From the NCBI RefSeq assembly GCF_003334405.1, contig NZ_QOWM01000002.1: a DNA stretch of 64,000 nucleotides. The stretch is one strand, 5' to 3'. The position numbers are program-made. Position 1 is the first letter of the stretch; the number at the start of each line of letters is the position of its first letter. Below are positions 33,001 through 36,000 of the stretch, piece after piece. This DNA comes from Escherichia coli. Its GTDB lineage: Bacteria > Pseudomonadota > Gammaproteobacteria > Enterobacterales > Enterobacteriaceae.

Positions 33001-36000
33001 GATAGTGCGCGGTTAAATGCACGACTTTTCTTTACACCAACCTGCTGTAGTGTTGTTTTGACGACCTCTGTGGCACCTTCAATAACGCCAAAGTACGTAC
33101 CCAGGAATGATTTCGACATCGCAACTACTGCGACAATAATCCCGGAAATTGACAACCATGCTGGGGCGTTCGGCAGCATAGAAAGCGCCGATAAAATGGT
33201 GACCCCTTCTTCTTTAGCAGCTTCAATATACGAAGGTGGAATAGAAAGCAGGCAGCTAAAGACAAAGAACAGTACACTTATGCAGATGATGAGATAAGCG
33301 ACTTTCATAATTTTTTTGCATTTATCCATAGCGTGTTCGCCATATTTTTCACGTCTGTCTATGGCAAACGTAGAAATAATGGGCGTATGGCTAAAGGCGA
33401 AAACCATCACGGGAATCGATATCCATATCTGGTGAAGGGTATTCTGATTGAACTCTACCTGGGTTGTTAATAGATCAGGTTGCCAACTACCGACAAGGTA
33501 AATGGAAAGAAATAAGAAATAGGCAATCAATGGGAATACCAAAAATCCCATTACCCGAATAGTGGCATGACGTCCCATCAGAAAAATGAGATTCAGAATT
33601 AATACAACACCCAGACTCACCAACATACGGATGCGAAGATCAATAACCATATGCTTTGCCAGCTGTTCCGTAAGTGAGTTGGTAATTGCCACTGCATATA
33701 TCAACACGACGACAAAAAAGGCGATGAAGTACAGCGTGGTAATCAGATTACCAATCTTCTTGCTATAGTAGTGTGTTACCGCGCCCGTTATCCCTTCACC
33801 TGCTGATGTTTTTGATGAGAGGATGAACTGGCACAAGGCTTTATGTGGCCAATATGTTAAAGGCCAGGCGACCAGAGCAGTAATAAACAGGACCACAGCC
33901 CCTGCCGAACCTAACTGAATAGGAAGGAAGAGCGTGCCTGCACCAACGGCTGTGCCGTAGAGCGCGAAACTCCACAGAGTTTCTTCTTTAGACCAAATAT
34001 TAGACATTATCTGAACGTATCATCTACAAATTAAACAAAATGGAGGGCAATTTACCATAAACCAGGTTAAGTATGGGAGATTAACGCCCTATCTACCCCT
34101 CTATTGGTGGGTTAGTGGTTGCAAACCTTACGTGCCAGTTATGTCTCTGACTGCTGCTCAGGCATATTTCCTTTGTGATAAAAATCACTTTTTTTAAACA
34201 ATTAAGATAACTGTAATTAACAATCATTTACTATTGCACTGTTAATTGGTGCGAGGTTGTGATGAAAGACGTTGTGATTGTCGGGGCGTTACGGACACCT
34301 ATCGGCTGCTTTCGTGGTGCGTTAGCGGGTCATTCCGCCGTGGAACTTGGTAGTCTGGTCGTGAAAGCGTTAATAGAACGTACCGGCGTTCCTGCATATG
34401 CGGTGGATGAAGTAATTCTTGGTCAGGTGTTGACTGCAGGGGCAGGGCAGAATCCGGCAAGGCAATCGGCTATTAAAGGTGGTCTGCCTAATAGCGTTTC
34501 TGCAATCACTATTAATGACGTTTGCGGTTCCGGGCTTAAAGCACTGCATCTGGCTACTCAGGCGATACAGTGTGGCGAGGCTGATATTGTCATCGCCGGT
34601 GGCCAGGAAAACATGAGCCGCGCACCACATGTTCTGACTGATAGCCGCACCGGTGCACAGCTTGGCAATAGCCAGTTGGTTGACAGTCTTGTGCATGATG
34701 GGTTGTGGGATGCCTTCAATGATTATCATATTGGTGTCACCGCCGAAAATCTGGCTCGCGAATATGGCATCAGCCGTCAGTTGCAGGATGCTTACGCACT
34801 TAGCTCGCAACAAAAAGCGCGAGCGGCGATTGACGCCGGACGATTTAAAGATGAGATCGTCCCGGTAATGACCCAAAGTAACGGGCAGACGTTGGTTGTT
34901 GATACCGATGAACAGCCACGCACTGACGCCAGCGCAGAAGGCTTAGCCCGTTTAAATCCTTCATTTGATAGTCTCGGTTCTGTGACAGCGGGTAATGCAT
35001 CATCCATAAACGATGGCGCAGCTGCGGTAATGATGATGAGCGAAGCCAAAGCACGAGCGTTGAATTTACCCGTGCTGGCCCGCATTCGCGCATTTGCCAG
35101 CGTTGGTGTAGATCCGGCATTGATGGGAATTGCGCCGGTGTATGCGACCCGCCGTTGCCTGGAGCGTGTAGGCTGGCAGTTGGCTGAAGTCGATCTTATC
35201 GAGGCTAATGAAGCGTTTGCTGCACAGGCGCTTTCGGTTGGCAAGATGCTTGAGTGGGATGAGCGTCGGGTCAATGTCAATGGTGGCGCGATCGCACTCG
35301 GTCACCCGATAGGCGCTTCCGGTTGCCGAATCCTGGTTTCTCTGGTTCATGAAATGGTGAAACGTAATGCCCGCAAAGGACTGGCAACGCTTTGTATCGG
35401 CGGGGGCCAGGGTGTGGCATTGACCATTGAACGTGACGAATAGCTCTGCATTTCCTCCTTACCGATAAATATCTGCCGTCATTAATCTGTTGAATAATGA
35501 TGGCTGGCAAGTCGACATACATTTTCTGGGCTCCCTCATTTTTCCATTCTCATGACATATTCGTGATCGACACTGCACTTTTTTTAATCCTTAACTTAAA
35601 AATGAAACATTGTTTTATTTTTAATTGAAAACCCTAGCCCATGGGCATATCATCCCTTTATAGAGAAAACGAAACAGTGTTTCACTATCGTTTTCTATTT
35701 TCACGCTTTACTGATTATCGGAGGTTGATGTGGACGTAAGACAGAGCATCCACAGTGCGCACGCAAAAACGCTGGATACCCAAGGGCTGCGCAATGAATT
35801 TTTGGTTGAAAAGGTATTTGTCGCCGATGAGTACACCATGGTTTACAGCCACATTGACCGAATTATTGTTGGCGGCATTATGCCGATAACTAAAACGGTT
35901 TCCGTTGGCGGGGAAGTTGGTAAACAACTCGGCGTAAGCTATTTCCTTGAACGTCGCGAGTTAGGTGTTATCAATATTGGCGGTGCCGGTACGATTACTG

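What the first reader, a model, noticed from the sequence alone, without database searches (positions are those of the whole stretch)
35598..35620. KdgR-type operator palindrome upstream of kduI
aaatgaaacattgttttattt is a near-perfect palindrome matching the KdgR box family and lies about 110 nt upstream of kduI, consistent with the known KdgR control of kduI-kduD.
Basis: partly seen in the sequence, partly recalled or inferred. Interest (0 to 1): 0.25.

Follow-up and report, generated by a model that had tools for sequence, protein, structure and literature searches.

The report
Known KdgR operator upstream of kduI
The palindrome is real and is the already-described binding site of the sugar-acid repressor KdgR in front of the E. 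coli kduI-kduD genes; it is one of two such sites that bracket the promoter, so the finding is correct but ordinary.

Summary
The window is E. coli chromosome (yqeF > kduI > kduD > araE). The quoted 21-mer AAATGAAACATTGTTTTATTT lies at 35600-35620, 109 nt before the kduI GTG (35730). It differs at 1 of 20 positions from the published KdgR consensus AAATGAAACAnTGTTTCATTT. About 0.01 such matches per window are expected by chance.

The two boxes bracket a sigma-70 promoter, TTGAAA-17-TATCAT (35625-35653). A published RNA polymerase SELEX study assigns that same promoter to kduI.

In 81 distinct kduI upstream regions from many Enterobacteriaceae genera, the half-sites TGAAAC/GTTTTA are about 99% conserved. 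The three central bases are 52% conserved and the surrounding DNA about 35%. The distance from box 1 to the -35 hexamer is fixed at 7 bp.

Published work predicts this site (Rodionov 2000, 2004) and shows kduI/kduD derepression when kdgR is lost. It also shows that the paralogous repressor PlaR (YiaJ) binds the kduI upstream region.

Verdict: observation confirmed, interpretation supported, already known, low interest. I found no direct KdgR footprint on the E. coli kduI site. Sequence alone cannot say how repression is shared between KdgR and PlaR.

The parts
35600..35620 (.). KdgR-type operator box 1 (O1): AAATGAAACATTGTTTTATTT. Its centre at 35610 is about -50 from the predicted transcription start.
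   Evidence: It has 1 mismatch to the consensus, against 0.01 matches expected by chance. It scores 25.4 bits on the weight matrix, rank 1 in the window. The core TGAAAC-N3-GTTT[C/T]A is present in 78 of 81 orthologous upstream regions, 77 of them with GTTTTA. The half-sites are 99% conserved and the centre 52%.
35667..35687 (.). KdgR-type operator box 2 (O2): AAACGAAACAGTGTTTCACTA. Its centre at 35677 is about +17.
   Evidence: It has 3 mismatches to the consensus. It scores 22.4 bits, rank 2 in the window and above the maximum of every shuffle. The core CG[A/G]AAC-N3-GTTT[C/T] is present in 63 of 81 orthologues, 66-69 bp downstream of box 1.
35625..35653 (+). Predicted sigma-70 promoter of kduI: -35 TTGAAA (35625-35630), 17-bp spacer, -10 TATCAT (35648-35653).
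   Evidence: The consensus scan matches 10 of 12 positions. The same TTGAAA-17-TATCAT is listed for kduI in the RpoD holoenzyme gSELEX study (PMC3946193). The -35 hexamer is 99% conserved and the -10 hexamer is conserved as TAnnAT. The -35 hexamer always starts 7 bp after the box 1 core (78 of 78).
35660..35660 (+). Inferred transcription start: a conserved A, 7 nt after the -10 hexamer.
   Evidence: This is inferred from the promoter geometry and from conservation of this column at 95% or more. No TSS mapping was consulted.
35562..35577 (.). Conserved upstream block cGTGATC-N-CA, CRP-like (TGTGA-N6-TCACA). Its centre is about -90.
   Evidence: Columns 35563-35568 and 35576-35577 are 95% or more conserved across 81 sequences. 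In E. coli only 6 of 10 core positions match the CRP consensus, and there is no hit to the 22-mer CRP consensus at up to 3 mismatches. The assignment to CRP is an inference.
35720..35725 (+). Shine-Dalgarno sequence GGAGGT of kduI.
   Evidence: It is conserved at 95% or more across the orthologues and lies 4 nt before the GTG.
35730..36566 (+). kduI (5-dehydro-4-deoxy-D-glucuronate isomerase, 278 aa), the regulated gene.
   Evidence: ORF list and RefSeq annotation of the identical sequence.
36596..37357 (+). kduD (2-dehydro-3-deoxy-D-gluconate 5-dehydrogenase), 29 nt downstream of kduI.
   Evidence: ORF list and RefSeq annotation. kduD mRNA rises in kdgR and plaR mutants (PMC6958661).

Best explanation
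The palindrome at 35600-35620 is the upstream operator (O1) of a two-operator repression module for the E. coli kduI(-kduD) promoter. The IclR-family repressor KdgR recognises it. O1 covers about -60 to -40 and ends 4 bp before the -35 hexamer. A second KdgR-type box (O2, 35667-35687) covers about +7 to +27. When no inducer is present, KdgR occupies these boxes and keeps RNA polymerase from binding or leaving an otherwise intrinsically active sigma-70 promoter. When hexuronates or pectin products are catabolised, 2-keto-3-deoxygluconate (KDG) accumulates, KdgR releases the DNA and kduI-kduD are expressed. The paralogue PlaR (YiaJ) recognises a very similar box and adds a second layer of repression at the same region. 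Shown here: the sequence match, the promoter geometry and the evolutionary constraint on the half-sites. Shown in the literature: derepression in kdgR and plaR mutants, PlaR binding to the region, RNA polymerase binding to this promoter, and induction by galacturonate and glucuronate. Inferred: that KdgR physically contacts these two boxes in E. coli, the exact transcription start, and KDG as the inducer (established for Dickeya KdgR; stated from my own knowledge).
For: O1 has 1 mismatch and O2 has 3 mismatches to the consensus AAATGAAACAnTGTTTCATTT, and they are the only such sites in 64 kb, against 0.01 expected. That consensus is quoted in PMC5559549. A weight matrix from the kdgK, kdgT and eda sites of K-12 plus two other sites ranks O1 and O2 first and second in the window, above every one of 200 shuffles. 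The promoter TTGAAA-17-TATCAT lies between the boxes, and RpoD gSELEX reports the same promoter for kduI (PMC3946193). In the footprint over 81 distinct enterobacterial upstream regions, the O1 half-sites are 99% conserved, the centre 52%, the -35 hexamer 99%, the spacer 41% and the remaining DNA 35%. The gap from O1 to the -35 hexamer is 7 bp in 78 of 78 sequences, and the O1-O2 distance is 66-69 bp. A kdgR gene is present in E. coli K-12. kduD mRNA is up in a kdgR mutant, and these genes are said to carry a KdgR box (PMC6958661). kduI and kduD are over-expressed in a strain with a deletion that includes kdgR (PMC6892915). The kduI promoter is induced 7- to 54-fold by galacturonate or glucuronate (PMC3578941). 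In Klebsiella, kduD is up after loss of kdgR (PMC8612250).
Against: I found no direct KdgR footprint, gel shift or ChIP on the E. coli kduI site in the searchable library. PlaR also binds this intergenic region and represses kduD, so part of the constraint on the boxes could be due to PlaR. The right half-site of O1 carries a conserved departure from the consensus (GTTTTA rather than GTTTCA in 77 of 81 sequences), which the simple model does not explain. The 67-bp spacing between box centres (about 6.4 helical turns) gives no clear support for face-of-helix cooperativity. The five sites used for the weight matrix were themselves picked by similarity to the consensus, so that test is not fully independent.
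Confidence: 0.9

Rival explanations
1. The boxes are mainly PlaR (YiaJ) operators, and KdgR acts on kduID only indirectly, for example through the reported mutual regulation of plaR and kdgR.
For: PlaR gSELEX lists kduI among its targets. The PlaR box ATnTGAAACnnnGTTCAnTT resembles the boxes here. kduD mRNA rises in a plaR mutant, and plaR mRNA rises in a kdgR mutant and vice versa (PMC6958661).
Against: O1 and O2 are much closer to the KdgR consensus (1 and 3 mismatches) than PlaR's own strongest site at yiaK, TGAAATCAAGTTTCG with different flanks, which has 8 mismatches. If KdgR acted only through PlaR, loss of KdgR should raise PlaR and lower kduD, yet kduD rises. The regulon logic (kdgK, kdgT, eda and kduID all derepressed in the kdgR mutant) fits direct control. 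The two readings are not exclusive, and PlaR very likely binds here as well.
Confidence: 0.07
2. The element is an AT-rich structural feature of the promoter, such as an UP element or an H-NS nucleation site, and not a specific repressor site.
For: The box is 81% A+T and lies at -60 to -40, where UP elements sit. The RpoD SELEX table flags H-NS at the kduI-yqeF spacer (PMC3946193).
Against: The conservation pattern is dyad-symmetric and base-specific, including the G and C of TGAAAC/GTTTTA, with a freely varying 3-nt centre. That is the signature of a dimeric sequence-specific protein, not of AT-richness. A second copy of the same dyad lies downstream of the -10 hexamer, where an UP element makes no sense.
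Confidence: 0.02
3. The palindrome is a chance inverted repeat, or an RNA hairpin or terminator belonging to yqeF.
For: As RNA the 39-nt stretch folds at -8.6 kcal/mol (z = -3.9), and it lies downstream of the yqeF stop.
Against: The stem is almost all A-U with no G+C-rich stem or T-run, and the scan finds no terminator-like site here. There is no Rfam match. The chance expectation is 0.01. The site is conserved in register with the -35 hexamer across genera.
Confidence: 0.01

Closest known systems
KdgR box of Dickeya dadantii and other gamma-proteobacteria (IclR-family repressor KdgR; consensus AAATGAAACAnTGTTTCATTT; Rodionov et al. 2000, 2004)
   Same: It has the same 21-bp dyad, with 19 of 20 specified positions for O1 and 17 of 20 for O2. 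It serves the same pathway (kduI-kduD, KDG catabolism). It sits over the promoter, and the target genes are derepressed in kdgR mutants.
   Different: Nothing substantive differs. The E. coli kduI O1 has a conserved T in place of the consensus C in its right half-site. Direct binding to this particular E. coli site was not found documented in the library searched.
PlaR (YiaJ) box of E. coli K-12 (ATnTGAAACnnnGTTCAnTT; Shimada et al. 2019, PMC6958661)
   Same: It shares the core TGAAAC-N3-GTT(T)CA. kduI is a listed gSELEX target of PlaR, and kduD is derepressed in a plaR mutant.
   Different: The flanks of O1 and O2 follow the KdgR consensus better than PlaR's strongest site at yiaK does (8 mismatches to the KdgR consensus). 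KdgR and PlaR are only 34% identical.
Other E. coli K-12 KdgR-regulon operators: kdgK (TAATGGAACACTGTTTTAATA), kdgT (AAATAAAACAGCGTTTCAATT), eda P2 region (TGAAACACCGGTCCA)
   Same: They have the same dyad type upstream of, or inside the promoter region of, KDG-pathway genes.
   Different: Each of those has a single recognisable box with 3-5 or more mismatches. kduI has two boxes, and O1 is the best match of all of them.
Bacillus subtilis kduID control by KdgR (Lin and Shaw 2007, cited in PMC6353982)
   Same: It has the same logic: two repressor sites in the region upstream of kduI, and the same target genes.
   Different: As far as I know the B. subtilis KdgR is a LacI-family protein with an unrelated operator sequence. 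The resemblance is analogy, not homology.

Membership tests
KdgR operator (KdgR box) | Match to the palindromic consensus AAATGAAACAnTGTTTCATTT | tested here: met
   O1 has 1 mismatch in 20 and O2 has 3 in 20, with a chance expectation of 0.01 per window. The consensus wording comes from PMC5559549. Weight-matrix ranks are 1 and 2.
KdgR operator (KdgR box) | Located in the promoter region of a pectin, hexuronate or KDG catabolic gene | tested here: met
   The boxes bracket the -35/-10 promoter of kduI.
KdgR operator (KdgR box) | Site conserved upstream of orthologous genes in related genomes (comparative-genomics consistency check) | tested here: met
   The O1 core is present in 78 of 81 upstream regions and the O2 core in 63 of 81. 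The half-sites are about 99% conserved against 35% for the background.
KdgR operator (KdgR box) | Cognate kdgR gene present in the genome | tested here: met
   kdgR (b1827) is annotated in E. coli K-12 MG1655. It lies outside the 64-kb window.
KdgR operator (KdgR box) | Target gene derepressed when kdgR is lost, and induced by KDG-generating substrates | not testable with these tools
   From the literature only. kduD mRNA is up in a kdgR mutant (PMC6958661). kduI and kduD are up in a deletion that includes kdgR (PMC6892915). Galacturonate and glucuronate induce the promoter 7- to 54-fold (PMC3578941).
KdgR operator (KdgR box) | Direct, KDG-sensitive binding of purified KdgR to this DNA (footprint or gel shift) | not testable with these tools
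   No such experiment on E. coli kduI was found in the searches.
PlaR (YiaJ) box | Match to ATnTGAAACnnnGTTCAnTT | tested here: inconclusive
   By eye, O1 has about 3 mismatches to the consensus as printed, or 2 if the printed consensus dropped a T. The two consensus sequences are too alike to tell apart.
PlaR (YiaJ) box | PlaR binding to the region in vitro and derepression in a plaR mutant | not testable with these tools
   From the literature. kduI is among the PlaR gSELEX targets, and kduD mRNA is up in a plaR mutant (PMC6958661). The exact PlaR-bound bases at kduI are not given in the text.

The most novel reading that the evidence does not exclude
The two boxes may not be simple redundant KdgR sites. 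The conserved non-consensus right half-site of O1 (GTTTTA in 77 of 81 genomes), its invariant 7-bp distance to the -35 hexamer, the conserved 66-69 bp O1-O2 spacing and the conserved CRP-like block at about -90 could reflect a fixed architecture. In that architecture KdgR and PlaR would divide the two operators between them, or a tetramer would loop the promoter, and the activator (CRP) and the repressor would compete at O1. That would be an integrated two-repressor logic gate for plant-derived sugar acids.
Probability: 0.15. Interest if true: 0.3.

Novelty: already known. Interest (0 to 1): 0.1.

Why it matters
The finding matters little beyond correct annotation. It confirms that a tool-free reader can recognise a textbook operator. 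It also gives a clean base-level map of the kduI control region: a CRP-like block, O1, the -35 and -10 hexamers, the likely start, O2 and the Shine-Dalgarno sequence. That map could guide reporter mutagenesis to separate the KdgR and PlaR contributions to hexuronate and pectin-product use by gut E. coli.

Tried and rejected
1. RNA element or terminator. The region has no terminator-like site and no credible Rfam match; the only hit was a plant miRNA model at E = 0.29, 21 bits against a gathering score of 74. The box 1 hairpin is all A-U. Rejected.

2. Canonical CRP site. The 22-mer CRP consensus finds nothing in the window at up to 3 mismatches. The conserved block at 35562-35577 is only CRP-like, so I left it as an aside.

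3. Reading Rodionov et al. 2004 directly. The paper is not held, so I took the consensus from a paper that quotes it.

4. Direct KdgR binding data for E. coli kduI (ChIP-exo, gel shift). None was found.

5. Telling KdgR from PlaR by sequence. The two consensus sequences are too similar. All I can say is that the boxes fit the KdgR consensus better than PlaR's best site does.

6. The inverted repeat AGAAAACGA/TCGTTTTCT (35664-35696), considered as a separate protein site or a conserved 5'-UTR hairpin. Its right arm is not conserved outside Escherichia, so I treat it as a lineage-specific by-product of box 2.

7. Additional KdgR-type sites elsewhere in the 80 related loci. Only two turned up (L040 +2140, L054 -2461), and I did not follow them up.

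Full report
**Where the window is.** The region 35300-35900 is 100% identical to many E. coli chromosomes and is found in 5419 of 5426 complete E. coli genomes. It is annotated there as the end of yqeF, an intergenic spacer and the start of kduI. The local gene order is yqeH, yqeG, yqeF > kduI > kduD > araE > ygeA, then lysR. yqeF ends at 35443 and kduI starts with GTG at 35730, so the spacer is 286 nt.

**The observation.** The quoted 21-mer AAATGAAACATTGTTTTATTT is at 35600-35620.
- Its arms are complementary at 9 of 10 positions around a central T. The dyad extends to 13 of 14 positions, and the repeat finder reports 19-nt arms at 84% complementarity.
- It ends 109 nt before the kduI start.
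- A search with AAATGAAACANTGTTTCATTT at up to 3 mismatches finds exactly two sites in the 64-kb window, both in this spacer, against 0.01 expected from dinucleotide-preserving shuffles.
- The first site is the reported box, with 1 mismatch.
- The search pattern is the published Dickeya dadantii KdgR consensus, as quoted from Rodionov et al. 2000 and 2004 in PMC5559549.

**A second scoring test.** I located KdgR-type boxes near the other classical E. coli K-12 KdgR targets:
- kdgK: TAATGGAACACTGTTTTAATA, 66-86 nt upstream of the gene.
- kdgT: AAATAAAACAGCGTTTCAATT, about 120-140 nt upstream of the gene.
- eda: TGAAACACCGGTCCA, inside the 3' end of edd.

A symmetrised weight matrix from these three sites plus two non-kduI sites found in related loci scores box 1 at 25.4 bits and box 2 at 22.4 bits. 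These are ranks 1 and 2 in the window. The next site scores 15.5 bits, and the highest score in any of 200 shuffled windows was 21.2. The training sites were themselves chosen by resemblance to the consensus, so this test is supportive and not fully independent.

**Anatomy of the control region.**
- The only sigma-70-like promoter in the spacer is TTGAAA (35625-35630), a 17-bp spacer, and TATCAT (35648-35653), matching 10 of 12 positions.
- The RpoD-holoenzyme genomic SELEX study lists exactly TTGAAA-17-TATCAT as the kduI promoter, with an H-NS flag for the spacer (PMC3946193).
- With a start near 35660 (inferred), box 1 covers about -60 to -40 and ends 4 bp before the -35 hexamer.
- Box 2 covers about +7 to +27.
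- Two operators bracketing the core promoter are a classical repression layout.

**Phylogenetic footprint.** A scan of one genome per species with the KduI protein returned 80 loci from Escherichia, Citrobacter, Enterobacter, Kluyvera, Kosakonia, Lelliottia, Trabulsiella, Pseudocitrobacter, Phytobacter and others. Together with the window this gives 81 distinct 230-nt upstream regions, which I aligned.

| Element | Window coordinates | Conservation across 81 sequences |
|---|---|---|
| Box 1 left half-site TGAAAC | 35603-35608 | 99% |
| Box 1 central 3 nt | 35609-35611 | 52% |
| Box 1 right half-site GTTTTA | 35612-35617 | 99% |
| -35 hexamer | 35625-35630 | 99% |
| Promoter spacer | 35631-35647 | 41% |
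| -10 hexamer | 35648-35653 | conserved as TAnnAT (99, 99, 25, 23, 99, 99%) |
| Box 2 half-sites | 35670-35675, 35679-35683 | 83% and 90% |
| Box 2 centre | 35676-35678 | 40% |
| Remaining 145 columns | | mean 35%; only 2% of columns reach 95% |

- The box 1 core is present in 78 of 81 sequences, always exactly 7 bp before TTGAAA.
- The box 2 core is present in 63 of 81 sequences, 66-69 bp downstream of box 1.
- Two strongly constrained half-sites separated by a free centre are what a dimeric, sequence-specific DNA-binding protein leaves behind. AT-richness alone would not produce this pattern.

**Within E. coli.** 5399 of 5426 genomes carry the 35590-35700 segment. In four divergent alleles most differences fall outside the half-sites. 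One allele has TGAAAT in the box 1 left half-site, and changes in the central bases also occur.

**Published evidence on function.**
- Shimada et al. 2019 (PMC6958661) state that kduI, kduD and eda carry the KdgR box. They cite Rodionov 2000 and 2004.
- Their Northern blots show increased eda, kdgT, kdgK and kduD mRNA in a kdgR mutant.
- They also identify kduI as a genomic-SELEX target of the IclR paralogue PlaR (YiaJ).
- The PlaR box they derive, ATnTGAAACnnnGTTCAnTT, is nearly the same as the KdgR box, and kduD mRNA is also raised in a plaR mutant.
- Sastry et al. 2019 (PMC6892915) found kduI and kduD over-expressed in a strain with a deletion that includes kdgR, and predicted KdgR repression.
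- Rothe et al. 2013 (PMC3578941) found the kduI promoter induced 7- to 54-fold by galacturonate or glucuronate.
- In Klebsiella pneumoniae, loss of kdgR raises kduD expression (PMC8612250).
- kdgR is present in E. coli K-12.

**KdgR versus PlaR.**
- The two proteins are 34% identical.
- PlaR's strongest site, in the plaR-yiaK spacer, is TGAAATCAAGTTTCG with different flanks. It has 8 mismatches to the KdgR consensus, against 1 and 3 for the kduI boxes.
- The kduI boxes are therefore KdgR-type by sequence, and PlaR most likely cross-binds them.
- Sequence analysis cannot apportion the repression between the two proteins.
- I found no direct KdgR footprint, gel shift or ChIP on the E. coli kduI site.

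**Mechanism.**
- KdgR, and additionally PlaR, occupies O1 and O2 and blocks an intrinsically active sigma-70 promoter.
- The pathway intermediate KDG releases KdgR. This is established for Dickeya KdgR and is stated from my own knowledge.
- The sequence match, geometry and constraint are shown here. The mutant phenotypes, PlaR binding, RNA polymerase binding and induction are shown in the cited papers.
- Physical contact of KdgR with these bases in E. coli, the exact start site and any cooperation between O1 and O2 are inferred.

**Alternatives rejected.**
- Terminator or RNA element: there is no terminator-like site and no credible Rfam hit, and the hairpin is all A-U.
- UP element or H-NS site only: the dyad-specific conservation and the second copy downstream of the -10 hexamer argue against it.
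- Chance: the expectation is 0.01.

**Verdict.** This is an already known operator of a well-studied regulon. The value added here is modest:
- The second box.
- The base-level promoter map.
- The conserved GTTTTA departure from the consensus.
- The fixed 7-bp register between box 1 and the -35 hexamer.
- The PlaR overlap.

Interest is low.

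Noticed in passing
window 35562-35577: The block cGTGATC...CA upstream of box 1 is 95% or more conserved across 81 enterobacterial kduI upstream regions, centred about 90 nt before the predicted start. 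It resembles a CRP site (TGTGA-N6-TCACA), but in E. coli it matches only about 6 of 10 core positions, and the full CRP consensus finds nothing at up to 3 mismatches.
   Followed up: partly
window 35612-35617: The right half-site of box 1 reads GTTTTA instead of the consensus GTTTCA in 77 of 81 genomes. It always lies exactly 7 bp before the -35 hexamer. This is a conserved departure from perfect symmetry that the simple operator model does not explain.
   Followed up: partly
window 35664-35696: A perfect 9-nt inverted repeat AGAAAACGA / TCGTTTTCT surrounds box 2, offset 3 nt from the box centre. As RNA it would form a hairpin at the very 5' end of the predicted kduI mRNA. The 76-nt leader folds at -17.2 kcal/mol, z = -1.8. 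The right arm is not conserved outside Escherichia.
   Followed up: partly
window 35475-35504: The inverted repeat GCCGTCATTAATC / GAATAATGATGGC lies 32 nt after the yqeF stop. It folds at -15.5 kcal/mol (z = -4.6) but has no T-run. It may be a yqeF 3' stabiliser or a weak terminator.
   Followed up: no
L085 (E. coli D53-1, NZ_CM161506.1), corresponding to about window 35547: An IS1B element is inserted in the yqeF-kduI spacer of this strain. It sits upstream of the CRP-like block and leaves both KdgR boxes and the promoter intact.
   Followed up: partly
L087 (E. coli MFDS1019527), aligned to window 35603-35608: A natural allele carries TGAAAT instead of TGAAAC in the box 1 left half-site, plus several flank changes. 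It could be a natural operator-down variant.
   Followed up: no
L002 1-560 (MAG labelled 'Deltaproteobacteria bacterium', JACZXR010000090.1): The contig encodes a KduI 99% identical to that of E. coli. From about 20 nt upstream of the start, the sequence is replaced by an ORF with an NPPY (DNA methyltransferase-like) motif. This is probably a chimeric or contaminated MAG contig. L063, labelled 'Chryseobacterium sp.', likewise carries an enterobacterial kduI locus.
   Followed up: partly
L040 +2140 and L054 -2461 relative to kduI start: Two further sites match the KdgR consensus at up to 3 mismatches, in the kduI neighbourhoods of Citrobacter braakii (AATTAAAACAATGTTTCATTA) and Enterobacter soli (AAACGAAACATTATTTCAATT). 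They are presumably operators of neighbouring regulon genes. I did not identify those genes.
   Followed up: no
window 37543-39090: The mechanical ORF for araE starts at a TTG well upstream of the RefSeq-annotated araE start (472 aa annotated against 515 aa in the ORF list). This is an ORF-listing artefact and not a feature.
   Followed up: no
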